Below, one piece after another: positions 28,672 to 61,514 of a stretch of DNA of 64,000 bases (position 1 is its first letter; every line of letters begins with the position of its first letter). The stretch covers positions 80,072 through 144,071 of the forward strand of contig JBHLMQ010000006.1 in NCBI GenBank assembly GCA_048938005.1, read 5' to 3'. The notes below the pieces were generated by a model. It saw only the letters and a program-made list of their open reading frames with translations. It was not told where the DNA came from and did not search any database. The stretch comes from Promethearchaeota archaeon. Its GTDB lineage: Archaea > Asgardarchaeota > Lokiarchaeia > Sigyniarchaeales > SOKP01. A program made the position numbers and the translations under genes.

Positions 28672-29928
28672 TTGAGAAAAGTAGCAATTATTGGAATAGG
28701 AATTACACCTTTTAAAGCAAGGTATTTAGATAAAACTTATTTTGAATTAGCTTATGATGCTACAAAATTAGCACTCGAAGACGCTAATAAAAACGGAGCA
28801 GAAATCATACACAAAGATCTCCAATCGACGGTTTATGGAATTTATAATGAGTTATTTGAGCGACAATTTATGCCGGATATCTTTACAAATTCATATTTAG
28901 GTATGAATAATAAACCGGGAACCAGAGTTGCCACAGGAGGCGCTACAGGAGGATATACAGTTCGAATGGCTTATGCTGAAGTAGCTTCTGGATTGTCTGA
29001 TTTATGTCTTTGTATCGGTCTTGAAAAATGTAATGATTGTTATGATGAACAGACAGGAACTACCACCCCTGAAGTTCTTAATGCTATTGCTTACTCTTCA
29101 GATATGACTTATGAGTACCCAATGGGTATGATGGCAGCAAGCTCTTATGTATCGATGGTAAATGCACATTATGAAGAATTTGGCAATCCTACCGAAGAAC
29201 AAATGGCGTATGTGAGTGTGAAAAATCATGGTAATGCAATGCTAAATCCTAAAGCCCAATCTCCAATGAAGCTGACTATTGAAGATGTGATATACTCAAG
29301 AATTATTTGTTATCCGTTTAAAATGTTGGATTGTTGTCTCTATTCTGAAGCATCTGCAGCATTAATTCTAGCCAATGAAGAAAAAGTTAGAGAATTAGGA
29401 GTTGAGAATCCAATATGGATTACAGGAGTTGCAGCTGCGAACACAGATTGCTTCATTGGTAATCGAGAAAGTGTAGGGAGGCTATATTCTAATATTTACG
29501 CAGCAAAAGTAGCATATAAAATGGCAGGTCTTGATTATAATAAAATTAAGGAACAAATTGATGTTGCAGAATTACATGATGCCTTTAGTGGACAAGAAGT
29601 AATTTCTTATGAGGAACTAGGATTTGTACCATTTGGAGAGGGTGGTCCATGGATTGAAAACTCTTTTGAAAAGCCCGGTGAAGGCCCTTGGTTGGAAGGA
29701 GAATTACCATGTTGTCCTTCAGGAGGATTAATTGGTTGTGGACATGCCGTTGGGGCTACAGGAATCATGTCAACTGGTGAAGCGGCACTTCAACTAAGAG
29801 GCAAAGCAGGCAAACATCAAGTATCCATTGAAAAGGGCAGAGCAATATCTCATTCTATAGGGGGTCCTGGAGCAGCGTATGCTGCTGTTATTGTAATGAC
29901 AAATGAGGAGGGGTTGAAAAAGCCATGA
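28672..29928 (+). CDS. SCP2-type thiolase-fold protein lacking the nucleophilic Cys
   Basis: VKNH, ELHDAF, GHAVGATG; RVATGGATGG in place of xxACASG. Confidence 0.88.
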   Translation: MRKVAIIGIGITPFKARYLDKTYFELAYDATKLALEDANKNGAEIIHKDLQSTVYGIYNELFERQFMPDIFTNSYLGMNNKPGTRVATGGATGGYTVRMAYAEVASGLSDLCLCIGLEKCNDCYDEQTGTTTPEVLNAIAYSSDMTYEYPMGMMAASSYVSMVNAHYEEFGNPTEEQMAYVSVKNHGNAMLNPKAQSPMKLTIEDVIYSRIICYPFKMLDCCLYSEASAALILANEEKVRELGVENPIWITGVAAANTDCFIGNRESVGRLYSNIYAAKVAYKMAGLDYNKIKEQIDVAELHDAFSGQEVISYEELGFVPFGEGGPWIENSFEKPGEGPWLEGELPCCPSGGLIGCGHAVGATGIMSTGEAALQLRGKAGKHQVSIEKGRAISHSIGGPGAAYAAVIVMTNEEGLKKP

Positions 29929-30419
29929 GTGAAAAATTTGAAGCACATGAAATAAGAGATAAAATTGTCATAAATTATAAATATACAATGGGTGGACATT
30001 CCAAATTTTTCATTGAGTTAATGAATAATAAAAAAATTTTAGCAACAAAATGTAAGAAATGCGGTAAAGTATGGATGCCTCCAAGAATTAATTGTTCCGA
30101 TTGCTTCGAAGACACTGAATGGATAGAATTAAAACCTGAAGGTGAAATTTTGGTCAGCACGATTGCTTGGTTTACAACCTCCGCTTTTATTCAAAATGTA
30201 CCCTATGCAATGGGTTTCATTAAGTTGAAAGGTGCCGACACTGGAATGCTCCAAGGTATCTTTTCGGAAAATTTAGTTCCTATTAAAATTAAAAAAGGGA
30301 AGAAAGTTAAGGCAGTATTCAATAAGAATAGAGAAGGAATTATGACTGATTTCTTTTTCGTACCAGAAGAAGAATATGAGAGCTGGATTAATAAACCAGA
30401 GTTCGAGGGAGGTGGATAA
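29925..30419 (+). CDS. DUF35 Zn-ribbon/OB-fold protein
   Basis: CKKC...PPRINCSDC, PYAMGFIKLKGAD; ATGA overlap with the upstream gene. Confidence 0.93.
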   Translation: MSEKFEAHEIRDKIVINYKYTMGGHSKFFIELMNNKKILATKCKKCGKVWMPPRINCSDCFEDTEWIELKPEGEILVSTIAWFTTSAFIQNVPYAMGFIKLKGADTGMLQGIFSENLVPIKIKKGKKVKAVFNKNREGIMTDFFFVPEEEYESWINKPEFEGGG

Positions 30420-30422
30420 AAA

Positions 30423-30794
30423 ATGGATACTGTAAAAGATAATTTAAAAAAAATACTTTTAGGAATGGAAGATAATTTAAAAGTAGAGGACATGTTTACC
30501 ACTAATGTTGGTGGAAAAGACGTTGCTTGGGATAAGATATTCCAATTCAACTTGGATAATGAGGATCCATTCTTTTTAGTAATTAAAGACAAAAAAGTGA
30601 AAATTACAGATGGCACAGTCTTAGATCCCGATGTTATATTAACAGGTGATCCAAATTCGATAGTAAACATATGCAATGGGAAGGGAGACTTTACTCATGC
30701 TATTTCTAGAGAAGAGATAAAAGTAGCAGAAGGTAAAGTAATGGATGTCATCCGACTTACTAAAGCTATAACAATTGTTTTAAAAACTAAATAA
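30423..30794 (+). CDS. SCP2 sterol/lipid-binding domain protein
   Basis: FQFNL...DGTVLDPDVIL...AISREEIKVAEG. Confidence 0.8.
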   Translation: MDTVKDNLKKILLGMEDNLKVEDMFTTNVGGKDVAWDKIFQFNLDNEDPFFLVIKDKKVKITDGTVLDPDVILTGDPNSIVNICNGKGDFTHAISREEIKVAEGKVMDVIRLTKAITIVLKTK

Positions 30795-31898: not shown

Positions 31899-31903
31899 GC
31901 TAT

Positions 31904-31954
31904 GTTCTAATCCTCCCTGAAATAATTTTTCATATTTCAGTAAGAGGATAGGAC
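31904..31954 (+). terminator. Imperfect stem-loop immediately after the substrate-binding gene
   Basis: GTTCTAATCCTC-C-CTGAAATA...TATTTCAG-TAA-GAGGATAGGAC arms can pair. Confidence 0.5.
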
Positions 31955-33247: not shown

Positions 33248-33261
33248 AAATAGTTGAATCT

Positions 33262-34856: not shown

Positions 34857-34963
34857 TCTTTCAAAATATAACCGAAATTTATATTTATCTTTTTTAATTC
34901 TTTTTAAATACTTCTGATAATTCGATATCTGAATTTTTTTTTAATAAAATAATTCATTTAAAA

Positions 34964-39952: not shown

Positions 39953-40420
39953 TCACCTCTCATTCCTCACGAAACCCTTTATATCTGAAGGATCTCCTTT
40001 TGGTATTTCCTCCCACTGGATTCTTAATTTCATTCCTGTTTTTACTTCTTCTTGTTCAAGATCTAATAGGCGGTAAATTATTGCCGTATTACTTCCATCA
40101 ATTTGTACCATACCAATAATTTGAGGTTTTTTAACTTTTCTACAAGCTCTATCATTAACCTTATAATGGGTTATTGTATAATTCTTTAGGGTTCCAGTAT
40201 CAGGCAAATCCACCCAATTCTCTTCAAAATGTATTTTTTCATTACATTTTCCACAAATTTTTCTTGGTGGAACAAAAACATCTCCACATTTGGGGCATTT
40301 ATTTCCAATTATTTTTTTATTTTTAAGAGTATCATAAAATTTGTCCAAGTAACGACCAACCCAAAAAGCAAATTCCGCTCTTATAAACCCCTTATTAGCA
40401 ACAATTATTTTATCAGTCAT
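39953..40420 (-). CDS. DUF35 Zn-ribbon/OB-fold protein
   Basis: CPKC...PPRKICGKC, IDGSNT, TGMKLRIQW. Confidence 0.93.
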   Translation of the reverse strand: MTDKIIVANKGFIRAEFAFWVGRYLDKFYDTLKNKKIIGNKCPKCGDVFVPPRKICGKCNEKIHFEENWVDLPDTGTLKNYTITHYKVNDRACRKVKKPQIIGMVQIDGSNTAIIYRLLDLEQEEVKTGMKLRIQWEEIPKGDPSDIKGFVRNER

Positions 40421-52353: not shown

Positions 52354-52803
52354 TTAAATCAGTCGAAAGTATTCAATATCCAATATTCTTTTTCTTGGTT
52401 TTTCTTTAAAAACAGCTTCAACTCGCATACCGACTTTAATTTTTTCTGGATCTCCTTCATTTATAATATGTACAAAATCGGTGTCCGCACCGTCAAGTGT
52501 AATTATCGCATAAGCAAAAGGAGGATCCAAAGGCATAACAGGTGTTGAATGGGTTATAACCGTAAAGCCTTTAACAATTCCTTGATTTCCAACCTCTGCC
52601 CATTCTTCCATTTTTTCGAAGCATTTAAAGCAAATCATTTTTGGAGGTACAAATATTTTACCGCACTTTGGGCATTTTACTCCCATTATTTTATTATTTT
52701 TTCCGATTTCTGTTATAAATTTTTCGACATAAGCTCCTGCTGTATGTTTATAAGGAACTTTAATCCTTCCTCTATACACTTTTTTTTCTATCTCTTCACC
52801 CAT
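52354..52803 (-). CDS. DUF35 Zn-ribbon/OB-fold protein
   Basis: CPKC...PPKMICFKC, LDGADT, VGMRVEAVF. Confidence 0.93.
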   Translation of the reverse strand: MGEEIEKKVYRGRIKVPYKHTAGAYVEKFITEIGKNNKIMGVKCPKCGKIFVPPKMICFKCFEKMEEWAEVGNQGIVKGFTVITHSTPVMPLDPPFAYAIITLDGADTDFVHIINEGDPEKIKVGMRVEAVFKEKPRKRILDIEYFRLI

Positions 52804-52805: not shown

Positions 52806-53297
52806 TTATCCCTCCGATTCCTCTTTTACAATTCTAAAATATGGAATATCCCCAATATTTCCTTCTCTTTTCTCTTTAAAAACAGCTTCTACACGTTGTC
52901 CTATTTTGAATTTAGTAGGATCAATCTCATCAACAAAATGCATCATATAAGTATCAGCACCATCTAATTTGAATATACCATAACCATAAGGGAATGGGCG
53001 CATACCCCCCGTAGTTGGATCGATAAATGGATAATTTACTACGGTGAAACCTTCTAGTGTACCTCTTGGAGATAGCTCTATCATATCCTCAATTGTCATT
53101 CCTACTAAACAGTCTGCACAAACTGCTCTCGGTGGCATATGAACTTTCCCACATTTGGGACATTTGCTTCCCATGATTCTCTTATTTTCCTTAAGTTCCT
53201 CAAAATATTTAACTGCTAATTTTCCTATAGAATAGTTATAAGGTAAGTCTGTTTTCCATTTAATTTGAAATTCTTTTTGTTTCTCTTTTTTTCCCAA
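52806..53297 (-). CDS. DUF35 Zn-ribbon/OB-fold protein
   Basis: CPKC...PPRAVCADC, LDGADT, IGQRVEAVF. Confidence 0.93.
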   Translation of the reverse strand: MGKKEKQKEFQIKWKTDLPYNYSIGKLAVKYFEELKENKRIMGSKCPKCGKVHMPPRAVCADCLVGMTIEDMIELSPRGTLEGFTVVNYPFIDPTTGGMRPFPYGYGIFKLDGADTYMMHFVDEIDPTKFKIGQRVEAVFKEKREGNIGDIPYFRIVKEESEG

Positions 53298-53303: not shown

Positions 53304-54476
53304 TCACCTCAATGGATTTGGATCTTTTCCTAATATTGCTAGTTCTGTCCAAAGACTTCCTCCGAAACCCATACCTAATGCAGTTTCGGCATCGGGCACT
53401 TGTCGTTTCCCACCCCTACCCATAATTTGAATCGCAGCTTCGGCAAACCGAACTAAAGCTGTCGCACCAATTGGGTTAGTACTTAATACTCCACCAGAAG
53501 GATTCACTGGTAATTCTCCACTCATTAAAGTTATTCCTTCATCCAGTAATTTTCCACCACCCCCTAGTTCAGCAAAACCTAATGCTTCAGTCCAGCTTAA
53601 TTCTGACCATGAAGTTGGTTCATAAATCTCCGCTACATCAAGATCTTTTATAGGATCTCTGATTCCAACTTTCTTATATACATTTTTCGATGCTATCGTT
53701 GCGGTTGGGAGGTTATACATAATATCATCAGTACCAAACGTGTAGTAATGAGCTGTTGAAACACCTTTAAACCATGCTGGATTATCTGTTACTTTTTTAG
53801 CTTCTTCTTCGTTTGCATAAATAACAGCACATGCTCCTTCACTTTGAGGACAGCAATCATGTAATCTTAAGGGATAAGAAATCATTTGAGAATTCATAAC
53901 ATAATCTAAAGTAATATCAGGCATTTGTAAATGTGCGAATGGATTATTTGCAGCATTACTTCGATTTTTAACAGTGACTTTTGCTGCTTGTTCTGATGTA
54001 ATTCCGTATTTCGCAGCATAAATATTAGCCATTAATGCAAGCGGTCCTAGGGCTCCTGCTAATGAGGGGCGTTCCCATACTGGGTCAAATGCAGTAATTA
54101 TTCCTGTAGTAGCTCCTCCTTCATTGAGTTTTTCCCAACCAACAACTAAAACATTTTTATAGATTCCAGAAGCTATGTTGTAATATCCACAAATTCCTAA
54201 AGATGAGCCTGTTGTACCACCAGTCGCAATTTTTACAACAGGTTTTAGATATCCAGGTGCTGCGTCAATTCCACACCACATTTCTGAGAAATTAATGCCC
54301 TCAAAATGATCCATATTGCCAATGAGAATAGCGTCAATATCTTGAGGTTCCATTTGAGCATCATCAAGAGCCATTTTAACAGCTTCATAGATCATTTCCG
54401 GTATATTTACATCTCTCCTTTTACTTCTAAACTTCGTTTGACCTACTCCTACTATTGCTACATCATGTTTTGGAAT
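53304..54476 (-). CDS. ltp3: Ltp3-like thiolase-fold retro-aldolase subunit (start moved to ATT at 54476)
   Basis: In-frame upstream IPKHDVAIVGVGQTKFRSKRRDVNIPE is the conserved first strand; KIATGGTTGSS, AEIYEP, STNPIGAT. Confidence 0.82.
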   Translation of the reverse strand: MPKHDVAIVGVGQTKFRSKRRDVNIPEMIYEAVKMALDDAQMEPQDIDAILIGNMDHFEGINFSEMWCGIDAAPGYLKPVVKIATGGTTGSSLGICGYYNIASGIYKNVLVVGWEKLNEGGATTGIITAFDPVWERPSLAGALGPLALMANIYAAKYGITSEQAAKVTVKNRSNAANNPFAHLQMPDITLDYVMNSQMISYPLRLHDCCPQSEGACAVIYANEEEAKKVTDNPAWFKGVSTAHYYTFGTDDIMYNLPTATIASKNVYKKVGIRDPIKDLDVAEIYEPTSWSELSWTEALGFAELGGGGKLLDEGITLMSGELPVNPSGGVLSTNPIGATALVRFAEAAIQIMGRGGKRQVPDAETALGMGFGGSLWTELAILGKDPNPLR

Positions 54477-54479: not shown

Positions 54480-55622
54480 TTATTCACCTCCAAATATTAG
54501 TACACAATTTCCCTGAGAACAGATACCATTCATTCCATATACTAATCCTGTTTTTGCTCCAGTAACTTGTCGCTTACTAGCTTTACCTGTTAATTGTAAG
54601 AAAATCTCTGCCGCTCGAATCAATCCATTAGCCATTGCTACATTGCTGGATAATACACCTCCAGAAGGATTGACCGGAATTGATCCTTCCATTTGTGTTT
54701 TTCCGCTATCGATGAATTTACCCCCTTCTCCTTTTCCACAGAAGCCTAAAGCTTCATAGATCATAAGTTCATGAGCAGAAAAAGCTTCAAATACCTCTGC
54801 AACGTCTAAACCTTTAACTGGATCTTTAATCTCAGCCATTCTATAAGCTCTTTTAGCAGCTAATTCCAATCCGATTAAATCAGTCATGGTTCGATGTCCA
54901 AGATAATAGGCATCAGTACAGTTTGCATATCCTTTCAACCATACGGGTGTGTCAGTAAATTTCCTTGCATTCTTCTCATTAGCAAGAAGCATTGCTACTG
55001 CTCCATCACTGTAAGGCGGAAAATCTAATTCTTTTAAAGGATATGCCAACATTGGCGACTTTAAAACATCCTCTCTAGATACTTCCTTTTGTAGATGGGC
55101 ATAAGGATTATTAACTGCATTTTTTCGATTCTTTACAACAACTTTAGCAGCTTGTTCTTCACTAACACCATATTTACTCATATACATATTAGCCATTAAA
55201 CCAGCAGAAGAAATTTGATCTAAACCTAAGTGTCGTTGATAAAAGGGATCAAATATGGAATTATTTATAAGATATTGATCCCCTTCCGAGCATTTAGAGT
55301 GTGAAACAACCAAGACAGTATCATATTCTCCAGATAAGATTCGCATAGCGCCATATACATAGGCAAAAGCCCCATCCCCTGAAACTCGAGATTCTGATTT
55401 TCTCACAGAGCCCACAGCATCTTGAATTGCCATATTAGCTATTGTTCGGCCATCATTGAAATCATTAGAACTAGAGATTACGCAACCAATATCATCGTTT
55501 GTAATTCCCAATTCATTATGGAGTTTTTTAACAACTTCAAAAACTAGTTCTGAAATTGTTAAATTAATTTTTTCTGCTTCATATTTTGTTTGAGCACATC
55601 CTACTATCGCTACTTTATCCAT
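54480..55622 (-). CDS. ltp4: Ltp4-like thiolase-fold subunit
   Basis: ELGITNDDIG, DFNDGRT, ESRVSGDGAFA, LSGEYDTVLV, NPSGGVLSSN. Confidence 0.82.
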   Translation of the reverse strand: MDKVAIVGCAQTKYEAEKINLTISELVFEVVKKLHNELGITNDDIGCVISSSNDFNDGRTIANMAIQDAVGSVRKSESRVSGDGAFAYVYGAMRILSGEYDTVLVVSHSKCSEGDQYLINNSIFDPFYQRHLGLDQISSAGLMANMYMSKYGVSEEQAAKVVVKNRKNAVNNPYAHLQKEVSREDVLKSPMLAYPLKELDFPPYSDGAVAMLLANEKNARKFTDTPVWLKGYANCTDAYYLGHRTMTDLIGLELAAKRAYRMAEIKDPVKGLDVAEVFEAFSAHELMIYEALGFCGKGEGGKFIDSGKTQMEGSIPVNPSGGVLSSNVAMANGLIRAAEIFLQLTGKASKRQVTGAKTGLVYGMNGICSQGNCVLIFGGE

Positions 55623-55785: not shown

Positions 55786-56754
55786 TTAAAAGTTGACTTT
55801 ATCTAATCCTTTAAGACCCAACATTTTCCTAGCTTCATCAGGAGTAGCTATTTCTCGCCCTAGATCATTAACTATCCTAACCATTTTTTCAACTAAATCA
55901 GCATTACTTTTTGCAAATATTCGTTCTTTCTTTTCAGGATCATATCCCACATAAACATTGTCTTCTAAGCCAACTCTTATATGTCCCCCCATGGTAGCTG
56001 ATATAGCTCCTAGGTGAAATTCTCGTGGATATCCAAGGCCAATAACCGACCATGTGAAGTTTCTCTCTCCGAATAACCTTGTAGCTTCATTATACATATG
56101 TATTAGCTCCCAAGGTGTGTTTCCAGTTCCCCCTAGCACACCTAGAACAAATTGCATATGTATAGGGAATTTGAGCCATCCAAAACGGAGCATAGCTCCA
56201 GCGTTCCAGATTCCACTAGTACTATAAATCTCAAGTTCAGGTTTTACATTATTCTCATACATAGTTTTCACAAAAAGCTCGAGATCATTGAATGTGTTTT
56301 GAAATGTATATCCCTTACTCATTTTTACAAGAGCTCCTTCCCATGGATACTTCCACTCTTTATATCGTTCTGCTAAAGGATGTATTGAAAAATTCATTGA
56401 TTCGCAATTAAAAGAACACATTTCTGGTTTAAATTCCGGAGCTACCGAAATTCTTTCCTCTGGTGTCATCCCAGCAGCTCCACCAGTGGTGACACAAACG
56501 ACTACATCTGTTTTAGCCTTAATTTTTTCAAGGTTTTCTCTCCAAATTCCCAAATCTGCAGTAGGCATTCCTGTTTTTGGATCTCTAACATGAACATGAA
56601 CGACTGCAGCACCCGCATCACGAGCTTTTTTAGCTTCATCAGATATCTGATCTGGTGTTATTGGTAAATAAGGAGTTTGTGTTGGTAATGTAACTGAACC
56701 AGTAAGAGCACAAGTAATTATACATTTATTTCTCCAAGCTGTAAGTACAGACAT
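55786..56754 (-). CDS. BKACE (DUF849/Kce family) beta-keto acid cleavage enzyme
   Basis: TCALTG, PITPDQI, VHVHVRD, SMNF, KPELE, QFVLG, RVGLEDN. Confidence 0.93.
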   Translation of the reverse strand: MSVLTAWRNKCIITCALTGSVTLPTQTPYLPITPDQISDEAKKARDAGAAVVHVHVRDPKTGMPTADLGIWRENLEKIKAKTDVVVCVTTGGAAGMTPEERISVAPEFKPEMCSFNCESMNFSIHPLAERYKEWKYPWEGALVKMSKGYTFQNTFNDLELFVKTMYENNVKPELEIYSTSGIWNAGAMLRFGWLKFPIHMQFVLGVLGGTGNTPWELIHMYNEATRLFGERNFTWSVIGLGYPREFHLGAISATMGGHIRVGLEDNVYVGYDPEKKERIFAKSNADLVEKMVRIVNDLGREIATPDEARKMLGLKGLDKVNF

Positions 56755-56982: not shown

Positions 56983-57876
56983 ATGATTAAAATGTTAGAA
57001 GAAGACTTATCAAACAAATTAGTAATAACTGCTGCTCTTGCGGGAAATTTTACATCTAAGAAACAAAATCCAGCGATTCCATATACTCCTGAGGAATTTG
57101 GAAATGAGGCAAAAAAATGTCATGATGCTGGAGCTGCCATAGTTCATATCCATGCAAGAGATCCTGAAACAGGATGGGCAACTCCTGATTTAAAGACAAC
57201 AAAAGCAGTTATTGATAATATACGCGAAAAAGCCCCAGATCTTATAATTAATTTAAGCACTTCCATGGGGTTCCGTACAACTCAAGAACAAAGAATTGCT
57301 CCAATTCAGACCTATAAGCCTTTACTTGCATCACTAAATACTAATTCAATGAATTTTGGAATAGGAAATTTTAAAACTGGAGAACTTATGGGAAGAGCTG
57401 ATGGTATTTTTAATAATAATTTTGAAATGATTCAGAATTTTGCTAGAGTAATGAAAGAAGTTGGAACAAAACCAGAGATTGAGATCTATGATTTTGGAGG
57501 GCTATATAACATCTTATTTCTTAATAAGCAAAATGAACTCTTTGAAGAACCATTACATTTTCAATTTGTATTTGGTGTCTTAGGAGGAATTCCATTTTCT
57601 TATCATAATCTAGGACACCTTCTCAATTTAATACCTATAGGGTCAACATGGAGTGTGTGCGGAGTAGCAAAGGATCAATTTAGAGCGGGATTATGTGCGG
57701 CAGCAACAGGAGGGCATATTAGGGTTGGTTTAGAAGATAATATCCGTACTCCAGACGGTCGTTTAGCTAAAGGATCTTGGGAACAAGTAGAATGGGCTGC
57801 AGAAGTTACAAAACTTGCGGGAAGAGAAGTAGCAACATCGAAAGACGCTCGTAAAATTTTTAATATGGTACAATAA
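56983..57876 (+). CDS. BKACE (DUF849/Kce family) beta-keto acid cleavage enzyme
   Basis: NPAIPYTPEE, VHIHARD, NSMNF, KPEIE, QFVFG, RVGLEDN. Confidence 0.93.
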   Translation: MIKMLEEDLSNKLVITAALAGNFTSKKQNPAIPYTPEEFGNEAKKCHDAGAAIVHIHARDPETGWATPDLKTTKAVIDNIREKAPDLIINLSTSMGFRTTQEQRIAPIQTYKPLLASLNTNSMNFGIGNFKTGELMGRADGIFNNNFEMIQNFARVMKEVGTKPEIEIYDFGGLYNILFLNKQNELFEEPLHFQFVFGVLGGIPFSYHNLGHLLNLIPIGSTWSVCGVAKDQFRAGLCAAATGGHIRVGLEDNIRTPDGRLAKGSWEQVEWAAEVTKLAGREVATSKDARKIFNMVQ

Positions 57877-58001: not shown

Positions 58002-58604
58002 TCAGAATGTAAAACCTTCTGGTAGTTCTGATTCTTTTGTACCTTCAACAACAAACATTAAATCCATAATTGTATAGGTTGGGTTCTTGGTCCGAAAGAT
58101 TGGTATAACTCTTTTTCCAATTTCAGGTTCTCCGACAACTAACACGCTCATAAGAATAGTGACAACTTCTTCATCAAATTCTACATTTATAAATTTGATT
58201 GGTTTTGGTAGTGTATTAAAAGCTCCAGAACGATGAGTAATAATAAATGAGTGAACTTTTGCAGTTTTCTGAGCTTTTTCAGTAATATCTATAACGGTAT
58301 TTTTTCTTAGGCAATCTGGGCAAAAAATCCTAAATGGTTCATAAATTGATCCTTTTGTTAAACATTTTTCATTATCACATCTAGAAGCCATAAGTTTACC
58401 TTTACCTAGAGACCCAAAAAATACTGCTTCTCCACCGTATGAATGTATATAAGTCATATCTCTAGGATTTGTAACTCCAGCTAATTTTCCTGTATCCTTA
58501 TTGAAAATAGGTTGATTTTTCTCAATTATATGAAAAGTCCCTTTAGGTTTATATCTTTTGTTGACAATATCTACAAAACCTTTTTCTTGTTCTGTTTTTG
58601 GCAT
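58002..58604 (-). CDS. DUF35 Zn-ribbon/OB-fold protein (Cx4C variant)
   Basis: RCDNEKC...FRIFCPDC; OB strands ending IGKRVIPIF. Confidence 0.85.
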   Translation of the reverse strand: MPKTEQEKGFVDIVNKRYKPKGTFHIIEKNQPIFNKDTGKLAGVTNPRDMTYIHSYGGEAVFFGSLGKGKLMASRCDNEKCLTKGSIYEPFRIFCPDCLRKNTVIDITEKAQKTAKVHSFIITHRSGAFNTLPKPIKFINVEFDEEVVTILMSVLVVGEPEIGKRVIPIFRTKNPTYTIMDLMFVVEGTKESELPEGFTF

Positions 58605-58608: not shown

Positions 58609-60030
58609 TTAATCCTCCTTTAACAAATTATTTGGATTCATTAAAATAGTGCATGTTACATGAGAACCGACACCAGCATGAGAAATAGCTAATCCTCTTT
58701 TTGCTCCTTTAACTTGCAAACTTGTCCAATCTTTTGGTTTTTCTCTCTCAAATTTTTTCCATTTTTCTTCTGGTTCGTGGATCTCATCCCATCGATTCCA
58801 AATATGATATCCAATTTCCGCAATTTGCATAAGACCTGTTGCTCCTACTGCATGCATGCACCCAATCAATCCACCACAGGGATTACTTGGTAATTTTCCT
58901 GGCCTTTTTGTATTTGGATTAATAACATAAGCATCACCAGATTCAATATAGTCTCTTCCTTCACCATACGGTCGAATACCTATATCCTCATATGTTTGTA
59001 TATCACTAATTGTAAATGCATCATGTAATTCAACTACATCTAGATCTTCAGATGGATCTATTACTCCCGACATATTGTATGCATAATATGCAGACATTCT
59101 AGCTGCTAAAAAACTAGAAAAGCCAGGGTATCTATCTCCTCCCGGAAATCTTTTTCCTAGATCATCATATTGATCTGTTCTTTCATTTGGTAAAAGAGGT
59201 ATTTTCATATCTCTTCGATCAGCTACTCTTAGAGTATGACTTCCTGCCGCAATATAAATCCTGAGTGGTTTATCAGTTATTTCATATGCTGTTTTTTCAT
59301 CGCAGACAATTCCACATGCCGCTCCTACACTCATTAAGCAACAATCTAAAGCACGAAGGGGATAAGCAACTATAGGGGAGTTAAGTACATCTTCAACAGT
59401 TATTTTCAAGGGTCCTTGAGCGTGAGGATTCATTCTAGCATAACCGCGATTTTTGACAGCAATTTCTGCCATAGTATTTCTAAATGAATCTTCTTCCATG
59501 CCAAAAATTTTCCAATATCTTTGAGCCATAACTGCATAATAGCCTGTATATATATGTCCAAGGGGTGTTTCCCAATCTTTATCTGCTGCACATGAAATAA
59601 GATGGTTTCCTTCATCAGTGGGAACTTCATCCATCCTCTCCCACCCTAATGCTAGAGCACAATCACTATATCCTGAAGCTACAGTTTTAACTGCCTCCCA
59701 CATAGCAGAACCCCCTGTAGCACCGCCAGTTTTTACTCCAATATTTCCTAATGGATCTAAACCAAGTCTATCGTGAATTACTGCTTCTCCAAGTAATTGA
59801 TCTCCAAAATGATCTGCAAAATGACCATAATAACAAGTATGAATATATTGTTTTAATTCATTTGGTGTCATTTTTACGAAATCTGCTGCTGCTGTTAAAG
59901 CATCAATGCACAATTCTTCAGTTCGCGTTTCTGGAAAAGCTCTGTCAAATTTTGACATCCCTACTGTAGCTAAATAAACTGGTCGCATTAATTTCGGTAT
60001 TTTTAATTGTTTATCACTAAATTTAATCAT
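58609..60030 (-). CDS. SCP2-type thiolase-fold protein lacking the nucleophilic Cys
   Basis: GVKTGGATGGS, VKNR, ELHDAF, MHAVGATG, SHAGVG. Confidence 0.88.
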   Translation of the reverse strand: MIKFSDKQLKIPKLMRPVYLATVGMSKFDRAFPETRTEELCIDALTAAADFVKMTPNELKQYIHTCYYGHFADHFGDQLLGEAVIHDRLGLDPLGNIGVKTGGATGGSAMWEAVKTVASGYSDCALALGWERMDEVPTDEGNHLISCAADKDWETPLGHIYTGYYAVMAQRYWKIFGMEEDSFRNTMAEIAVKNRGYARMNPHAQGPLKITVEDVLNSPIVAYPLRALDCCLMSVGAACGIVCDEKTAYEITDKPLRIYIAAGSHTLRVADRRDMKIPLLPNERTDQYDDLGKRFPGGDRYPGFSSFLAARMSAYYAYNMSGVIDPSEDLDVVELHDAFTISDIQTYEDIGIRPYGEGRDYIESGDAYVINPNTKRPGKLPSNPCGGLIGCMHAVGATGLMQIAEIGYHIWNRWDEIHEPEEKWKKFEREKPKDWTSLQVKGAKRGLAISHAGVGSHVTCTILMNPNNLLKED

Positions 60031-60200
60031 AACTAATTCACTTTTTAGAGTTTCATGCCTTTTTGTTAAAATATTTAATTTTCGAAATACATTCGATATT
60101 TTATTGTTATGTTTTATTTTGATTAAAACATTTCTAATTGAATGTTAAAATAGAGATGGGAAAAAAATCCTATTTGATTTAGAAGAAAATTTAAAATTAT

Positions 60201-61514
60201 TTGAAAATTGACTTACTCATAATGGATACAAGACTCCCAGAATTTCCAAAAATAGAAATTAGTAGAAATGTACCTGAATTAGATTTAATAAATAACCCAA
60301 TATTTAACACAAAAGAAAAGACATTTTTAACTGAATTCTATGATTACATGGAAGAAAATCTTGAAAAAGATTTGAAAAAATTAGAAGAATTAAATTATTC
60401 GGCAGAGGAACCAATTCAAGAAAAGAAAAAAGGAATAGTAGTTAATTTTATGAAAAAATTAGCAGAAAAGGGTTATTATAGTACGGTAATCGATTTTGAG
60501 GATCATGATATTGGTAATGTAACCAGAAATGCTCTTATTGCATTAGTATTATGTGGTGGCTTTTGGTCTTCAAATAGCGATAGATATGTGAATGGGAATT
60601 GGAGTATAGAAATGGGCAGATTAGCGGGGGGAACTCTTTATTGCAATCCCGTCAATTATAAGGCTAACGAATATCAAAGAGAGAAATATCTTATCCCCGT
60701 TGTAAAAGATGGCTTGATGGCAGCTTCTGCTATGACTGAATTTAATGCTGGTAGTGATATCGTTAGAATTGAGTTAATACTTGATGATAAAGGAGATAAA
60801 GTTATCGCGAATGGGAAAAAACTTTTTATTACTAATGGAATGTTGGCAGATTATATTATTCTTTATGGTAGATTAAATAGTGGAAGATTAGGGGGAATTA
60901 TAGTAGATACAGAATATCAGCAATTAAAAAATTTCGAATCTTCAAGAGTAAGAACTTATGGAATGAATGATGCTTTTGTTAGTCGTTTAGTTTTTGATGA
61001 TGCTGAACTTCCTAAAGAAAATCTTCTAGAAGGAGATGGTTTAGATATTATGTTTCATCAATTGACTGAAGAAAGATTAGTTATTAGTGCTGAGGCTATA
61101 GGTGATTGCATCAAAAAGTTATTCTTTTCTCATAGTTTTGCTCTTCAACGTGAACAATTTGAACGAAAATTACACCAATATCAAATAATTAGATTTCCAA
61201 TCGCTCAAAATCTGCGTCAAACGAATTTATTCCTTTCAGCTCTAATAAATTACGCTCGTGAGATTGATAAACGGACAAATATGGCTAGTTCTAAAATAAT
61301 GGCTTCTCAAATTATGGGATTAAAAATTCAAACATGTGAATTAGCATTTCAGAGTTCCATTGATTTATTTAGAACAATGGGAGGACGTGCTTTCACTGAA
61401 CAATACCGTAATCAATTTGGTCTCCTTGATGCATTTTGCATGGTACATGGTGGTGGAAGTCATTATGTGTTAGGAGATGCTGAATCAAGAAGATTATTTA
61501 AAACTAAAAAATGA
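60201..61514 (+). CDS. Acyl-CoA dehydrogenase, AtuD/IVD-like signature (start may be ATG at 60222)
   Basis: AMTEFNAGSD, NGKKLFITNG, QLTEERL, REQF, MGGR, VHGGGS. Confidence 0.9.
   Translation: MKIDLLIMDTRLPEFPKIEISRNVPELDLINNPIFNTKEKTFLTEFYDYMEENLEKDLKKLEELNYSAEEPIQEKKKGIVVNFMKKLAEKGYYSTVIDFEDHDIGNVTRNALIALVLCGGFWSSNSDRYVNGNWSIEMGRLAGGTLYCNPVNYKANEYQREKYLIPVVKDGLMAASAMTEFNAGSDIVRIELILDDKGDKVIANGKKLFITNGMLADYIILYGRLNSGRLGGIIVDTEYQQLKNFESSRVRTYGMNDAFVSRLVFDDAELPKENLLEGDGLDIMFHQLTEERLVISAEAIGDCIKKLFFSHSFALQREQFERKLHQYQIIRFPIAQNLRQTNLFLSALINYAREIDKRTNMASSKIMASQIMGLKIQTCELAFQSSIDLFRTMGGRAFTEQYRNQFGLLDAFCMVHGGGSHYVLGDAESRRLFKTKK

What the first reader, a model, noticed from the sequence alone, without database searches (positions are those of the whole stretch)
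28672..61514. Candidate anaerobic retro-aldol pathway for beta-methyl-branched (isoprenoid/steroid-side-chain) lipids in an Asgard-like archaeon
Seen: across the window, the lipid genes include Fe-ADH, AOR, 3 acyl-CoA ligases, 2 ACADs, 4 crotonases, 6 thiolase-fold proteins (each matched by a DUF35), 2 SCP2, 2 BKACE and a CrtI/RetSat-like enzyme. There is no 3-hydroxyacyl-CoA dehydrogenase and no Cys-bearing thiolase in the 64 kb. Known: Cys-less thiolase-fold proteins with DUF35 partners (Ltp2-ChsH2) are retro-aldolases acting on 3-hydroxyacyl-CoAs with a tertiary alcohol, Ltp3/Ltp4 are proposed to do the same, and such substrates cannot be oxidised to 3-oxo. Inference: isoprenoid alcohol -> aldehyde -> acid (ADH, AOR) -> CoA ester -> beta-methyl enoyl-CoA (IVD-type ACAD) -> 3-hydroxy-3-methylacyl-CoA (crotonase) -> acetyl-CoA plus a methyl ketone (aldolase-DUF35). 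A beta-keto acid derived from that ketone could then be cut by BKACE. This would bypass the beta-methyl block without alpha-oxidation or O2. For phytanyl/phytol chains it predicts 6,10,14-trimethylpentadecan-2-one, a known sediment phytol product. Automated pipelines would label all this as ordinary beta-oxidation.
Basis: partly seen in the sequence, partly recalled or inferred. Interest (0 to 1): 0.9.

Follow-up and report, generated by a model that had tools for sequence, protein, structure and literature searches.

The report
Cys-less thiolase-like aldolase gene cluster
An Asgard archaeon carries a conserved lipid-breakdown gene cluster whose six thiolase-like proteins all lack the catalytic cysteines; four of them are relatives of the bacterial sterol side-chain "aldol lyases" Ltp3/Ltp4, which suggests an unusual way of cutting branched lipids without oxygen.

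Summary
Pfam confirms the whole gene inventory. All six thiolase-fold proteins lack both catalytic cysteines, and each has a DUF35 partner. The window holds 6 of the genome's 7 DUF35 genes and no 3HCDH-type dehydrogenase.

New here: four of the six form two paralogous modules, each with an A subunit, a B subunit and two DUF35 genes. A subunits carry an invariant Gly/Tyr-x-Pro/Asn signature in 67 of 67 sequences. B subunits are variable. The modules are homologues of the actinobacterial Ltp3/Ltp4/double-DUF35 locus, which papers call aldol lyases for C24-branched sterol side chains.

The module is conserved at 74-95% identity in Promethearchaeota and at about 50% in Syntrophales and Desulfobacterales.

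A retro-aldol role is therefore plausible but untested. The isoprenoid-to-methyl-ketone-to-BKACE scheme stays speculative. The genome has no acetone-type or biotin carboxylase. It has six HADH genes and six Cys-thiolases elsewhere, and the bacterial versions sit beside HADH and true thiolases.

Verdict: real, a new variant of a known kind, moderately to highly interesting.

The parts
28672..29928 (+). T1, Cys-less thiolase-fold protein of the HDAF type (nucleophile Gly, HDAF, GH His kept)
   Evidence: Pfam Thiolase_C_1/Thiolase_N; residues; best PDB hits are archaeal thiolases 7yvy and 6esq at 147-148 bits, against Ltp2 6ok1 at 69.5
29925..30419 (+). D1, DUF35 partner of T1 (4-nt overlap with T1)
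   Evidence: Pfam zf-ChsH2 and OB_ChsH2_C; CxxC...CxxC zinc ribbon
30423..30794 (+). SCP2a, sterol-carrier-protein-2 family
   Evidence: Pfam SCP2; the SCP2a-D1-T1 order recurs in L042 and partly in L013
37002..37532 (-). D2, DUF35 of module 1
   Evidence: Pfam
37552..38799 (-). T2, A-type subunit (Ltp3-like) of module 1: Gly / YSPF / Asn
   Evidence: best NCBIfam hit PRK08313 at 360 bits, below the cut-off of 514; falls in the A clade
38802..39944 (-). T3, B-type subunit (Ltp4-like) of module 1: 3-residue deletion in the nucleophile loop, FESY, Asn
   Evidence: PRK07937 at 196 bits over its full length; falls in the B clade
39953..40420 (-). D3, DUF35 of module 1
   Evidence: Pfam
40595..41884 (+). 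ACAD1, acyl-CoA dehydrogenase with Gly in place of the YEGT Glu and a Glu in the 'LNLERL' stretch
   Evidence: Pfam; alignments; no NCBIfam equivalog above 99 bits
42129..43862 (+). LIG3, AMP-forming acyl-CoA ligase, nearest to long-chain fatty-acid ligases
   Evidence: [quoted passage not shown]
43981..44796 (+). ECH3, crotonase-fold protein lacking both hydratase Glu residues
   Evidence: Pfam ECH_1; alignment. The positions of the Glu residues are recalled; they were checked for ECH4 only
44909..46462 (+). CrtI-family FAD oxidoreductase
   Evidence: Pfam Amino_oxidase/NAD_binding_8; NCBIfam crtI_fam at 150 bits, below the cut-off of 238; best PDB hit CrtI 4dgk at 89.5 bits
46466..47665 (+). 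FNR-like reductase (FAD_binding_6, NAD_binding_1, 2Fe-2S) paired with the CrtI-family gene
   Evidence: Pfam; the pair is conserved in 22-24 of 43 archaeal loci and in the Syntrophaceae locus L049
47763..48179 (+). SCP2b
   Evidence: Pfam SCP2
48296..49495 (+). Fe-dependent alcohol dehydrogenase
   Evidence: Pfam Fe-ADH and ADH_Fe_C
49532..51379 (+). Aldehyde:ferredoxin oxidoreductase (AOR)
   Evidence: Pfam AFOR_N and AFOR_C; found in 8 of 43 archaeal loci, so it is accessory to the core
51407..52231 (-). ECH4, crotonase with both catalytic Glu; last gene of the T5-T4-D4a-D4b-ECH4 run
   Evidence: Pfam; Glu residues aligned to 5zai and 3kqf; follows the module in 21 of 43 archaeal loci
52354..52803 (-). 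D4b, second DUF35 of module 2
   Evidence: Pfam; corresponds to one half of the fused double-DUF35 proteins of Nocardia and Streptomyces
52806..53297 (-). D4a, first DUF35 of module 2
   Evidence: Pfam
53304..54476 (-). T4, A-type subunit (Ltp3-like) of module 2: Gly86-87 / Y285-E-P287-T / N334; ATT start
   Evidence: PRK08313 at 340 bits; 40% identical to the N. farcinica PRK08313 protein
54480..55622 (-). T5, B-type subunit (Ltp4-like) of module 2: loop deletion, FEAF, Asn
   Evidence: predicted to pair with T4
55786..56754 (-). BKACE1, beta-keto acid cleavage enzyme
   Evidence: Pfam BKACE; nearest NCBIfam model is 3,5-dioxohexanoate:acetyl-CoA acetone transferase at 361 bits, below the cut-off of 430
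56983..57876 (+). BKACE2
   Evidence: Pfam BKACE; nearest NCBIfam model is the 3-keto-5-aminohexanoate cleavage enzyme at 258 bits, below the cut-off of 382
58002..58604 (-). D6, divergent DUF35 partner of T6
   Evidence: Pfam 20 bits; hhalign probability 92.7% over 122 columns
58609..60030 (-). T6, Cys-less thiolase-fold protein of the HDAF type with two insertions
   Evidence: Gly/HDAF/His in 17 of 17 orthologues; NCBIfam PRK06365 at 676 bits, just below the cut-off of 695
60201..61514 (+). ACAD2, divergently transcribed from T6-D6; Gly in place of the YEGT Glu, Glu in 'LTEERL'
   Evidence: Pfam; ACAD2 stands next to T6 in 17 archaeal loci
18680..22015 (-). LIG1, ECH1 and ECH2: an outlying ligase and two tandem crotonase paralogues that each keep only the second Glu
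   Evidence: Pfam; alignment
24753..26540 (+). LIG2, AMP-forming ligase nearest to long-chain fatty-acid ligases
   Evidence: Pfam; NCBIfam

Best explanation
The window holds a conserved accessory catabolic cluster of an Asgard (Promethearchaeota) archaeon for CoA-activated, probably long and branched or otherwise blocked, lipids.

Its core is two paralogous modules. Each has two thiolase-fold genes and two DUF35 genes: D3-T3-T2-D2 and T5-T4-D4a-D4b. They are homologues of the actinobacterial Ltp3/Ltp4/double-DUF35 locus.

I propose that each module forms a heteromer:
- an A subunit (T2, T4) that is catalytic, with no Cys and an invariant Tyr-x-Pro and Asn;
- a B subunit (T3, T5) with a degenerate active site;
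- two zinc-ribbon/OB DUF35 proteins that clamp the dimer.

Proposed route: a ligase makes the acyl-CoA. An ACAD with a helix-G Glu makes the 2-enoyl-CoA. The crotonase ECH4 hydrates it. The heteromer then cleaves the 3-hydroxyacyl-CoA by a retro-aldol reaction into acetyl-CoA (or propionyl-CoA) plus a carbonyl compound. This replaces oxidation by HADH and thiolysis. Any aldehyde formed would go to AOR or Fe-ADH. The rest of the chain would be handled by the ordinary HADH and Cys-thiolases encoded elsewhere.

Shown: gene content, loss of the thiolase residues, homology to the Ltp3/Ltp4 locus, conservation and synteny.
Inferred: the heteromer, the aldolase chemistry and the order of steps.
Unresolved: the substrate, and the roles of the HDAF pairs (T1-D1, T6-D6), the BKACE genes and the CrtI/FNR pair.
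For: 1. Thiolysis is excluded. In all six proteins the nucleophilic Cys and the HDCF Cys are replaced. The Cys-bearing paralogues C6_10473 and C12_4202 of the same genome keep both.

2. The A-type signature is invariant. Gly at the nucleophile position, Tyr-x-Pro at the HDCF position and Asn at the GH position occur in the window's T4 and 66 of 66 relatives from loci. One of these is gapped at the Gly column. The same position in B types varies (Y/S/F/D/L/G/C). The Tyr sits where Ltp2 (YDHF) and Sal (YDCY) have their catalytic base (passages of PMC12329534).

3. Homology to Ltp3/Ltp4. In Nocardia farcinica the gene order is: TIGR03559 'F420_Rv3520c', then a 340-aa protein with two DUF35 domains, then PRK07937 'lipid-transfer protein' (596 bits, above cut-off), then PRK08313 (750 bits, above cut-off).
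- The PRK08313 protein has Gly/YVPF/Asn and is 40% identical to T4.
- The PRK07937 protein shares the loop deletion and is 31% identical to T5.
- The Streptomyces and Rhodococcus A and B proteins fall inside the A and B clades, with support 0.96-0.99.
- PRK08313 is the best NCBIfam hit of T2 and T4.
- Papers name ltp3 and ltp4 as adjacent aldol-lyase genes for C24-branched sterols.

4. Heteromer.
- A and B are sister clades with parallel bacterial and archaeal branching.
- The order T5 then T4 is kept in 59 of 64 loci.
- The T5 stop and the T4 start are 3 nt apart.
- Complex prediction for T4 with T5: score 0.95, best of 3 controls 0.00. That mark was reached by 58 of 80 solved complexes and 2 of 110 mismatched pairs. 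The runs agree in at least 94% of contacts and the partner's pLDDT is at least 93. Thiolase dimers are solved structures, so this pass may reflect likeness only.
- One library protein of 731 aa fuses a thiolase-fold domain to two DUF35 domains.

5. Context.
- ECH4 with both Glu residues follows the module.
- Of 43 archaeal loci, 0 have an HADH or a Cys-thiolase within 10 kb.
- In Rhodococcus qingshengii the A gene follows an ACAD pair and a MaoC pair, as in steroid side-chain operons.

6. Selection. T4 is 74-95% identical across Loki-, Hermod-, Hod-, Jord- and Freyarchaeota records.
Against: - No Ltp3/Ltp4-type protein has, to my knowledge, been assayed in vitro. 'Aldol lyase' rests on genetics cited in the passages I read.
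- The A subunit lacks the general acid of both solved aldolases. It has Pro where Sal has Cys304 and Ltp2 has His296. It has Asn where, by spacing only, Ltp2 has Tyr344 and Sal has Gln352. I could not see that alignment.
- By sequence the six proteins are closer to true thiolases and to the uncharacterised 4yzo (167-169 bits) than to Ltp2 (68-88 bits) or Sal (75-78 bits).
- In 10 of 21 bacterial loci a Cys-thiolase lies within 10 kb of the module, in some immediately upstream. In 5 of 21 an HADH lies nearby. There the module adds to beta-oxidation rather than replacing it.
- The genome has six HADH genes and six Cys-thiolases elsewhere.
- The distribution is patchy: 64 of 400 genomes of the phylum, and 13 of 53 in the genus.
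- A retro-aldol step loses the thioester of the remaining chain, which costs a new ATP-dependent activation. It can therefore only be an occasional step.
- The HDAF pairs, the B subunits, the BKACE genes and CrtI/FNR have no assigned role.
Confidence: 0.5

Rival explanations
1. An isoprenoid alcohol (phytol or archaeol chains) is oxidised by ADH and AOR, activated, dehydrogenated and hydrated to a 3-hydroxy-3-methylacyl-CoA. This is cleaved to acetyl-CoA plus a methyl ketone. The ketone is carboxylated to a beta-keto acid, which BKACE cleaves.
For: - Ltp3/Ltp4, the homologues of T2-T5, are linked in the literature to removal of a branch on the beta-carbon (C24) of sterol side chains.
- Both ACADs have their Glu at the helix-G position and Gly in place of the YEGT Glu. 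I recall this as the isovaleryl-CoA and long-chain type.
- A CrtI-family flavoprotein with its own reductase is syntenic in 22 of 43 archaeal loci and in a Syntrophaceae locus. Amino_oxidase-fold flavoproteins also accompany the bacterial modules.
- SCP2 proteins and ligases nearest to long-chain ligases point to hydrophobic substrates.
- A BKACE gene lies next to the module in 25 of 43 archaeal and 3 of 21 bacterial loci.
- The genome has no biotin carboxyltransferase, so the known carboxylation route around a beta-methyl group is not available.
Against: - No Hydantoinase_B (acetone-carboxylase type) gene and no Carboxyl_trans gene was found in the 95%-complete genome. The ketone-to-beta-keto-acid step therefore has no candidate enzyme, and BKACE has no supplied substrate.
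- Without that step, only one acetyl-CoA would be gained per chain.
- The nearest models of the BKACE proteins act on 3,5-dioxohexanoate and 3-keto-5-aminohexanoate.
- AOR is present in only 8 of 43 archaeal loci.
- The ACADs are as similar to medium-chain and butyryl-CoA dehydrogenases as to IVD.
- No gene is specific to isoprenoids.
- My search for the ketone with phytol and 'anaerobic' found only 3 unrelated papers. The sediment chemistry is therefore recalled, not checked.
Confidence: 0.13
2. A Sal-type, aldehyde-forming side-chain cleavage. A secondary 3-hydroxyacyl-CoA (for example from a phenylpropanoid, a steroid or bile-acid-like side chain, or another chain whose 3-oxo form cannot be thiolysed) is cleaved to acetyl-CoA plus an aldehyde. 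AOR oxidises the aldehyde to the acid with reduction of ferredoxin, and a ligase re-activates it.
For: - AOR and Fe-ADH lie directly beside ECH4 and module 2 in the window. AOR occurs in 8 of 43 related archaeal loci and Fe-ADH in 15.
- Three ligases are in the window.
- The proteobacterial Shy-Sal pathway does exactly this: hydratase, then a DUF35-bound Cys-less aldolase, then aldehyde oxidation (abstract and passages of PMC12329534).
- The genome has 15 AOR-like ORFs.
Against: - The A subunits belong to the Ltp3 lineage, not the Sal lineage, and lack Sal's essential Cys304.
- AOR is missing from most related loci.
- Re-activation costs ATP.
- No aromatic or steroid ring-degradation genes were seen in the window.
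Confidence: 0.2
3. Ordinary beta-oxidation. The Cys-less proteins are non-catalytic scaffolds or regulators, or subunits that assemble with true thiolases. HADH and Cys-thiolases encoded elsewhere do the chemistry.
For: - Six 3HCDH genes and six Cys-thiolases lie elsewhere in the genome. On contig C22 an HADH, an ECH and a thiolase lie within 8 kb.
- In bacteria a Cys-thiolase precedes the module in one run of genes.
- The B subunits have no conserved active-site residues.
- DUF35 is a known scaffold in thiolase complexes (passages of PMC10398937).
Against: - The A-type residues Tyr, Pro and Asn at the active-site positions are invariant in 67 of 67 sequences across two domains of life, and identity is 74-95% within Asgard archaea. 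That is not expected of a mere scaffold.
- Of 43 archaeal loci, 0 have an HADH or a Cys-thiolase nearby.
- The solved relatives that lack the Cys (Ltp2, Sal) are enzymes.
Confidence: 0.12
4. Biosynthetic direction. The complexes catalyse aldol addition of acetyl-CoA to a ketone or aldehyde, to build branched or extended lipids.
For: - Aldol reactions are reversible.
- Archaeal thiolase/HMG-CoA synthase/DUF35 complexes are biosynthetic (title of reference 18 in PMC12329534).
Against: - The companions are catabolic in type: AMP-forming ligases, ACADs, a hydratase, AOR.
- The actinobacterial homologues sit in catabolic clusters.
- The distribution is patchy, as for an accessory pathway.
Confidence: 0.04

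Closest known systems
Ltp3/Ltp4 with the adjacent double-DUF35 protein of actinobacterial sterol catabolism (NCBIfam PRK08313 and PRK07937). That the gene numbers are Rv3523, Rv3522 and Rv3521 is recalled.
   Same: - Two adjacent thiolase-fold paralogues, a longer A and a shorter B.
- A has Gly / Tyr-x-Pro / Asn.
- B has a 3-residue deletion in the nucleophile loop.
- There are two DUF35 domains.
- A and B fall in the same clades as T2/T4 and T3/T5.
- They sit among ligase, ACAD and hydratase genes.
   Different: - The two DUF35 domains are split into two genes.
- The hydratase is a crotonase, not a MaoC pair.
- Identity is only 31-40%, and scores are below the NCBIfam cut-offs.
- The host is a strictly anaerobic-type Asgard archaeon with CODH/ACS and no carboxylase.
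- The companions are AOR, BKACE and CrtI/FNR.
- The biochemical activity of Ltp3/Ltp4 themselves has not been shown in anything I read.
TcLtp2-ChsH2(DUF35) steroid C3 side-chain aldolase (PDB 6ok1)
   Same: - Thiolase fold without the catalytic Cys.
- Bound to DUF35.
- Tyr at the first position of the HDCF-equivalent motif, as in T2 and T4.
- Acts after a hydratase.
   Different: - The motif is YDHF with a second catalytic Tyr344. T2 and T4 have Y-x-P and Asn.
- It is a homodimer, not an A/B pair.
- HMMER scores are 46-88 bits, against 127-169 bits for thiolases and 4yzo.
CtSal-Shy(DUF35) bile-acid C5 side-chain aldolase (PDB 9myr)
   Same: - Cys-less at the nucleophile position (Gly).
- Tyr base.
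- DUF35 partner.
- Its aldehyde product is oxidised next.
   Different: - Its essential Cys304 (YDCY) is Pro in T2 and T4.
- It forms a separate clade according to the paper.
- Scores are 55-78 bits.
[quoted passage not shown]
   Same: - Nearest characterised relatives by sequence, especially of T1 and T6.
- DUF35 partner.
- T1 and T6 keep both His residues.
   Different: All six window proteins lack the nucleophilic Cys and the HDCF Cys, so thiolysis and Claisen condensation are excluded.
PDB 4yzo, 'putative acyl-CoA acyltransferase' (uncharacterised)
   Same: - Best PDB hit of T4 and T5 at 167-169 bits.
- In the printed alignments it too lacks Cys at the nucleophile position (Ser) and has HDMA in place of HDCF.
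   Different: - It keeps the GH His.
- Its function is unknown. A search for '4YZO' found 4 papers (3 listed), none of them about its function.

Membership tests
Ltp3/Ltp4-type module (PRK08313 + PRK07937 + two DUF35 domains) | The A subunit scores above the curated cut-off of NCBIfam PRK08313, and the B subunit above that of PRK07937 | tested here: not met
   T2 scores 360 bits and T4 340 bits against a cut-off of 514; this is their best hit. T3 and T5 score 196-197 bits against a cut-off of 419, over the full length but not as their best hit. The Nocardia proteins pass with 750 and 596 bits.
Ltp3/Ltp4-type module (PRK08313 + PRK07937 + two DUF35 domains) | A and B fall in the same clades as the actinobacterial A and B proteins | tested here: met
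   FastTree of 157 sequences: A clade 0.987 and B clade 0.963, each including the Streptomyces and Rhodococcus proteins. The Nocardia proteins were compared by alignment only.
Ltp3/Ltp4-type module (PRK08313 + PRK07937 + two DUF35 domains) | Shared active-site pattern: A has Gly / Tyr-x-Pro / Asn; B has a 3-residue deletion in the nucleophile loop | tested here: met
   Nocardia A has YVPF and Asn; Nocardia B has 'EMDAAW---'. T4 has YEPT and Asn; T3 has 'EMDGAH---'.
Ltp3/Ltp4-type module (PRK08313 + PRK07937 + two DUF35 domains) | Two DUF35 domains encoded beside the pair | tested here: met
   The 340-aa Nocardia protein and the 339-aa Streptomyces protein each match D4a and D4b twice (residues about 35-165 and 190-312). 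The window has two separate genes per module.
Ltp3/Ltp4-type module (PRK08313 + PRK07937 + two DUF35 domains) | Retro-aldol cleavage of a beta-branched 3-hydroxyacyl-CoA | not testable with these tools
   This needs enzyme assays. Even for Ltp3/Ltp4 I saw only genetic attribution.
Ltp2 steroid aldolase | YDHF motif (Tyr base, His oxyanion hole) plus a second catalytic Tyr344 | tested here: not met
   The Tyr is present in T2 and T4 only. The His position is Pro. The Tyr344 position is inferred by spacing to be Asn. The alignment to 6ok1 itself was not displayed.
Sal bile-acid aldolase | YDCY motif with an essential Cys304 | tested here: not met
   Pro, Ala or Ser stands at that position in all six proteins.
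True thiolase (SCP2 or archaeal type) | Nucleophilic Cys, the HDCF acid/base Cys, and the GH His | tested here: not met
   Both Cys are absent in 6 of 6. The His is kept only in T1 and T6.
Canonical beta-oxidation operon | A 3-hydroxyacyl-CoA dehydrogenase and a Cys-thiolase encoded with the ACAD and the hydratase | tested here: not met
   PF02737 has no match on contig C31. No Cys-thiolase lies in the window. Of 43 related archaeal loci, 0 have either. An SDR of unknown specificity lies at 2-760.
Isovaleryl-CoA-dehydrogenase-type ACAD | The catalytic Glu is on helix G instead of in the C-terminal YEGT motif | tested here: met
   ACAD1 has 'GGGT' and ACAD2 'GGGS' where 1buc and 5lnx have 'YEGT'. 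Both have Glu in 'L-x-x-E-R-L' where those structures have Gly. That this is the IVD/LCAD position is recalled.
Isovaleryl-CoA-dehydrogenase-type ACAD | Specific overall similarity to IVD | tested here: not met
   For ACAD2, IVD scores 96 bits and other ACADs 92-95. For ACAD1 the best hits are 5lnx and butyryl-CoA dehydrogenase at 90-96 bits, with IVD at 83. No NCBIfam equivalog scores above 99 bits.
BKACE | Pfam PF05853 over its full length | tested here: met
   321 and 299 bits, covering positions 1-274 of 274. Both proteins are below the cut-off of every NCBIfam equivalog.
Limonene dehydrogenase CtmAB-type allylic methyl hydroxylase | A heterodimer of two related flavoproteins with covalent flavin | not tested
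   No CtmA or CtmB sequence was at hand. The window has one CrtI-family gene plus an FNR-like reductase. Its best PDB hit is CrtI. The idea came from recall and from passages of PMC11061730.

The most novel reading that the evidence does not exclude
Asgard archaea, and the syntrophic Deltaproteobacteria that share the module, bypass the beta-methyl block of isoprenoid chains (phytol, archaeal or other polyprenyl lipids, branched sterol side chains) without O2, without carboxylation and without a 3-hydroxyacyl-CoA dehydrogenase. They hydrate the 3-methyl-2-enoyl-CoA and cleave the tertiary alcohol with an Ltp3/Ltp4-like A/B/DUF35 heteromer. This releases acetyl-CoA and the isoprenoid methyl ketones known from sediments. 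The Cys-less HDAF pairs and the BKACE proteins would be further new C-C enzymes acting on the products.
Probability: 0.13. Interest if true: 0.85.

Novelty: new variant of a known kind. Interest (0 to 1): 0.62.

Why it matters
How branched (isoprenoid, sterol side-chain) lipids are broken down in anoxic sediments is poorly known. The known ways around a beta-branch need O2 or a biotin carboxylase, and this genome lacks the carboxylase.

This work shows four things:
- The genetically defined but biochemically untested Ltp3/Ltp4 'aldol lyase' pair is one branch of a much wider A/B/DUF35 family with an invariant Tyr-x-Pro/Asn site.
- That family reaches into Asgard archaea and syntrophic bacteria.
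- In Asgard archaea it sits in a strongly conserved cluster without HADH or a true thiolase.
- Automated annotation calls these proteins thiolases, and so would overstate ordinary beta-oxidation capacity in Asgard metabolic reconstructions.

The finding gives a concrete four-gene target for expression and assay.

Tried and rejected
- RNA evidence: the look-up of sequencing runs listed no RNA holder for 51407-55622. Read laying was therefore not used. This is no evidence either way.
- Placing the six proteins in a tree with Ltp2, Sal, SLP, BbsB and 4yzo: not possible. PDB sequences are not stored proteins, and I did not type them. I used HMMER scores against the PDB instead, plus a tree with sequences from fetched loci. 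The alignment of T4 to 6ok1 was never displayed because only the top alignments are printed. The equivalence of Asn334 with Ltp2 Tyr344 and Sal Gln352 therefore rests on spacing.
It was not testable and is weakened by the single-gene layout and the CrtI best hit.
- Lysine fermentation as the role of BKACE: considered, not followed.
- Threonine-aldolase-like lyase (35878-36951) plus an amino-acid ABC transporter as a source of aldehydes for AOR: noted, not tested.
- The protein-atlas search on T4 gave only generic thiolase-named clusters.
- HMG-CoA synthase is not next to the Cys-thiolase/DUF35 pair on C6; the PF08540 match is on C60.
- Literature, all negative:
  - 'DUF35, thiolase, archaea, beta-oxidation': 3 papers, none on this.
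  - Asgard, thiolase, AOR, beta-oxidation and Lokiarchae terms: 7 papers, none of whose titles or abstract openings, as listed, concern these proteins; none was opened.
  - Trimethylpentadecan-2-one, phytol, anaerobic: 3 unrelated papers.
  - I found no paper on Cys-less thiolase-fold/DUF35 modules in Asgard archaea with these searches. Papers outside the library are not covered.
- Papers, and how much of each I saw:
  - PMC12329534: outline, abstract and passages.
  - PMC11061730, PMC6593523, PMC10398937, PMC13753135: passages only.
  - Wilbrink 2012: seen only as a citation.
  - Supplements were not opened. Fig. S8 and Table S4 of PMC12329534 would bear on the residue equivalences.
- No structure prediction or fold search was run.

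Full report
**What is there.** The window is G000:C31:80072-144071 of a 3.72-Mb genome that is 95% complete, with about 30% G+C. I ran Pfam on 59 ORFs of at least 100 aa.
- Fe-ADH and AOR;
- three AMP-forming ligases;
- two ACADs;
- four crotonases;
- six thiolase-fold proteins (T1-T6);
- six DUF35 proteins;
- two SCP2 proteins and two BKACE proteins;
- a CrtI-family flavoprotein.

The sixth DUF35 (58002-58604) is weak in Pfam. A profile comparison with the other five gives probability 92.7%, E 4e-7. An FNR-like reductase (FAD, NAD and 2Fe-2S domains) directly follows the CrtI-family gene. The window also carries CODH/ACS subunits.

The organism is an Asgard archaeon. Orthologues with 83-95% identity come from records titled Promethearchaeota or Promethearchaeia. 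The genome also encodes an actin that scores 442 bits against Pfam Actin.

**Catalytic residues.** I aligned the six proteins with each other, with all thiolase-fold ORFs of the genome, and with solved archaeal thiolases.
- The nucleophilic Cys ('ACAS') is Gly in T1, T2, T4 and T6. It falls in a 3-residue deletion in T3 and T5.
- The acid/base Cys of the HDCF motif is gone in all six: HDAF in T1 and T6, YSPF in T2, YEPT in T4, FESY in T3, FEAF in T5.
- The His of the GH motif survives only in T1 and T6. The other four have Asn.

A profile of the six found 14 thiolase-fold ORFs among 4,695 ORFs of the genome. Of the eight outside the window, six keep the nucleophilic Cys (C6, C12, C53, C65_9386, C11, C22) and two do not (C65_397, C97). 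PF02737 finds six full-length 3HCDH genes, none of them on the window's contig. Of seven DUF35-like ORFs in the genome, six are in the window.

One correction concerns T4. It begins at ATT 54476, three bases after the stop of T5 and behind a GGAGGTGA Shine-Dalgarno sequence. The upstream frame encodes the conserved N-terminus. Of 26 orthologous loci, 20 have ATG, 5 have ATA and 1 has ATT at that codon.

**Two kinds of Cys-less protein, and an A/B module.** T2-T5 form two paralogous four-gene modules: D3-T3-T2-D2 and T5-T4-D4a-D4b. A scan of one genome per species found 64 loci with a T4 relative. By record title, 43 are archaeal: mostly Promethearchaeota, plus Hermod-, Hod-, Jord- and Freyarchaeota, some 'uncultured archaeon', and one titled Thermoplasmata. 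The other 21 are bacterial: Syntrophaceae, Syntrophales, Desulfobacterales and others.

The neighbours T5 and DUF35 are present in 40 of 43 archaeal loci. In the 21 bacterial loci T5 is present in 19 and DUF35 in 20. In bacteria the gene order is DUF35-T5-T4-DUF35.

Across the window's T4 and 66 relatives, the A type always has Tyr-x-Pro at the HDCF position and Asn at the GH position. It has Gly at the nucleophile position in all but one gapped sequence. The B type varies at the first motif position (Y, S, F, D, L, G, C). T6 orthologues are Gly/HDAF/His in 17 of 17.

In trees, A and B are sister clades (support 0.96-0.99). Each contains bacterial and archaeal sequences in parallel order. The HDAF proteins group instead with the Cys-bearing archaeal-type thiolases (0.82), so the cysteines were lost at least twice.

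A complex prediction for T4 with T5 gave a score of 0.95, with the best of 3 controls at 0.00. That mark was reached by 58 of 80 solved complexes and by 2 of 110 mismatched pairs. The runs agree in at least 94% of contacts, and the partner's pLDDT is at least 93. Thiolase dimers are solved, so this pass may only show likeness.

A search of 1.84 billion cluster representatives with the T4 profile found 1,241 proteins at E up to 1e-30. Of the 120 full-length proteins among the best 150, 18 carry Gly/Tyr-x-Pro/Asn and 22 are true Cys/His/Cys/His thiolases. One 731-aa protein fuses a thiolase-fold domain to two DUF35 domains.

**Link to Ltp3/Ltp4.** T4 has about 40%-identical relatives in Actinobacteria. 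In an unannotated Nocardia farcinica record the gene order is:
1. a TIGR03559 protein, a family named 'F420_Rv3520c';
2. a 340-aa protein made of two DUF35 domains;
3. a PRK07937 'lipid-transfer protein' (596 bits, above cut-off);
4. a PRK08313 protein (750 bits, above cut-off).

The PRK08313 protein has Gly/YVPF/Asn. The PRK07937 protein has the loop deletion. From memory, Rv3521, ltp4 (Rv3522) and ltp3 (Rv3523) follow Rv3520c in that order. The papers I read confirm only two things: that ltp3 and ltp4 are adjacent, and that they are called aldol lyases for C24-branched sterol side chains, citing Wilbrink 2012.

PRK08313 is the best NCBIfam hit of T2 and T4. PRK07937 aligns over its full length with T3 and T5. 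All four scores are below the curated cut-offs.

Streptomyces clavuligerus has the same three-gene layout. In Rhodococcus qingshengii the A gene follows an ACAD pair and a MaoC pair, as in steroid side-chain operons.

The window's modules are therefore distant members of the Ltp3/Ltp4/double-DUF35 kind, with the DUF35 domains split into two genes.

**Relation to the solved aldolases.** Ltp2 uses the Tyr of YDHF as its base and Tyr344 as its acid. Sal uses the Tyr and the Cys of YDCY. Both lack the nucleophilic Cys and bind DUF35 (PMC12329534, abstract and passages). T2 and T4 share the Tyr but have Pro at the third motif position and, by spacing, Asn at the Tyr344/Gln352 position. A general acid is therefore not identified.

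By HMMER the six proteins are closer to thiolases and to the uncharacterised 4yzo than to Ltp2 or Sal. They work, at most, like Ltp2 or Sal. They are not members of those families.

**Context and pathway.** The Asgard synteny is ACAD2, T6-D6, BKACE, (ligase), T5-T4-D4a-D4b, ECH4, (AOR, Fe-ADH, SCP2), FNR-like, CrtI-like, ECH3, ligase.

Counts among the 43 archaeal loci, which have unequal lengths:

| Gene | Loci with it |
|---|---|
| T6 | 17 |
| BKACE | 25 |
| ECH4 | 21 |
| CrtI-like | 22 |
| FNR-like | 24 |
| Fe-ADH | 15 |
| AOR | 8 |
| HADH | 0 |
| Cys-thiolase | 0 |

- ECH4 keeps both catalytic Glu residues. ECH1 and ECH2 keep one, and ECH3 keeps none. The Glu positions are recalled and were checked for ECH4 only.
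- Both ACADs have Gly where butyryl-CoA dehydrogenase has the YEGT Glu, and a Glu in an L-x-x-E-R-L stretch where those enzymes have Gly. I recall this as the IVD/LCAD arrangement. Overall similarity is not IVD-specific.
- LIG2 and LIG3 are nearest to long-chain fatty-acid ligases.
- In bacteria the module is accompanied by ACADs, ligases, Amino_oxidase-fold flavoproteins, MaoC and an alpha/beta-hydrolase. A classical Cys-thiolase occurs in 10 of 21 loci and an HADH in 5 of 21.
- One Syntrophaceae locus (L049) has the full set: module, ACAD, ligase, ECH, CrtI-like and FNR-like.

The core idea is supported by homology and context: these are not thiolases, and they probably cleave 3-hydroxyacyl-CoAs that cannot or need not be oxidised. 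It remains biochemically untested.

The specific isoprenoid scheme is weak in three ways.
- The genome has no Hydantoinase_B and no Carboxyl_trans gene (completeness 95%). A methyl ketone could not be carboxylated by the known enzyme types, and BKACE has no supplied substrate.
- The nearest models of the BKACE proteins act on 3,5-dioxohexanoate and 3-keto-5-aminohexanoate, and both proteins are below those cut-offs.
- AOR is an accessory neighbour, not part of the core.

An aldehyde-forming, Sal-like reading fits AOR, ADH and the ligases equally well.

The T4 orthologue is patchy. It occurs in 64 of 400 genomes of the phylum at E up to 1e-100, in 55 of 134 other genomes of the family, and in 13 of 53 of the genus. 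This fits an accessory catabolic trait.

Because a retro-aldol step discards the thioester of the remaining chain, it can only be an occasional step. The HADH and Cys-thiolases elsewhere in the genome would do the rest.

**Verdict.** The cluster is best described as a new archaeal (and deltaproteobacterial) variant of the Ltp3/Ltp4-type thiolase-fold 'aldol lyase' system. It has an A/B/2xDUF35 architecture and an invariant Tyr-x-Pro/Asn site.

The substrate and the roles of the HDAF pairs, the BKACE proteins and CrtI/FNR remain open.

Noticed in passing
window 54474-54476 (- strand): T4 starts with ATT, 3 nt after the TAA stop of T5 and 7 nt behind a GGAGGTGA Shine-Dalgarno sequence. Of 26 orthologous loci, 20 have ATG, 5 have ATA and 1 has ATT at the same codon. 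Standard ORF callers truncate the gene by 27 residues.
   Followed up: yes
window 14704-16718 (- strand), 13384-14502: CODH/ACS beta (CdhC) and epsilon subunits lie next to a 4Fe-4S protein, so the Wood-Ljungdahl machinery is encoded 12 kb from the lipid cluster.
   Followed up: no
window 22128-24636: A 693-aa N6 DNA methyltransferase (N6_Mtase/Eco57I type) and a GNAT acetyltransferase sit between the ECH1/ECH2 pair and LIG2. They may be a restriction-modification insertion in the lipid region.
   Followed up: no
window 20440-22015 (- strand): ECH1 and ECH2 are tandem crotonase paralogues that keep only the second of the two hydratase Glu residues. ECH3 (43981-44796) keeps neither, yet it is conserved beside the CrtI-like gene in 20 of 43 archaeal loci. 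They may be isomerases or other crotonase-fold enzymes.
   Followed up: partly
window 28672-30794: The order T1 - DUF35 - SCP2 recalls the thiolase-plus-SCP2 make-up of eukaryotic SCPx (recalled), but here the thiolase-like part has no catalytic Cys.
   Followed up: no
window 31077-36951: An amino-acid-type ABC transporter (SBP_bac_3, two permeases, an ATPase), a DUF362 fragment and a 357-aa Beta_elim_lyase (threonine-aldolase size) lie between T1 and module 1. The lyase and the transporter recur next to ECH3/LIG3 in loci L029 and L030.
   Followed up: partly
window 61674-62648: A 324-aa RNase_H_2-superfamily protein is syntenic with ACAD2-T6-D6 in about 17 archaeal loci. Its role beside lipid genes is unexplained.
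   Followed up: no
genome G000, contigs C9 (78.8-80 kb) and C13 (16-34 kb): Further BKACE genes lie next to 3HCDH-type dehydrogenases. The genome holds about 15 AOR-like ORFs, 25 crotonase ORFs and 5 BKACE ORFs by phmmer with the window's proteins.
   Followed up: partly
protein P0072 (731 aa): A natural fusion of one thiolase-fold domain (1-385) with two DUF35 domains (421-569, 588-720). P0116 (775 aa) has a thiolase-fold domain plus an unassigned C-terminal half.
   Followed up: partly
L058 (Deltaproteobacteria MAG), 1103-4426 and 8361-11648: Two complete A/B/DUF35 modules lie in one bacterial locus. Each is preceded by a classical thiolase gene, with two Amino_oxidase-fold flavoproteins, an alpha/beta-hydrolase, an HADH, a 601-aa ACAD and a MaoC dehydratase around them.
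   Followed up: partly
PDB 4yzo (alignments): The best PDB hit of T4 and T5 is deposited as 'putative acyl-CoA acyltransferase'. In the printed alignments it has Ser at the nucleophile position and HDMA instead of HDCF, so it too may not be a thiolase.
   Followed up: partly
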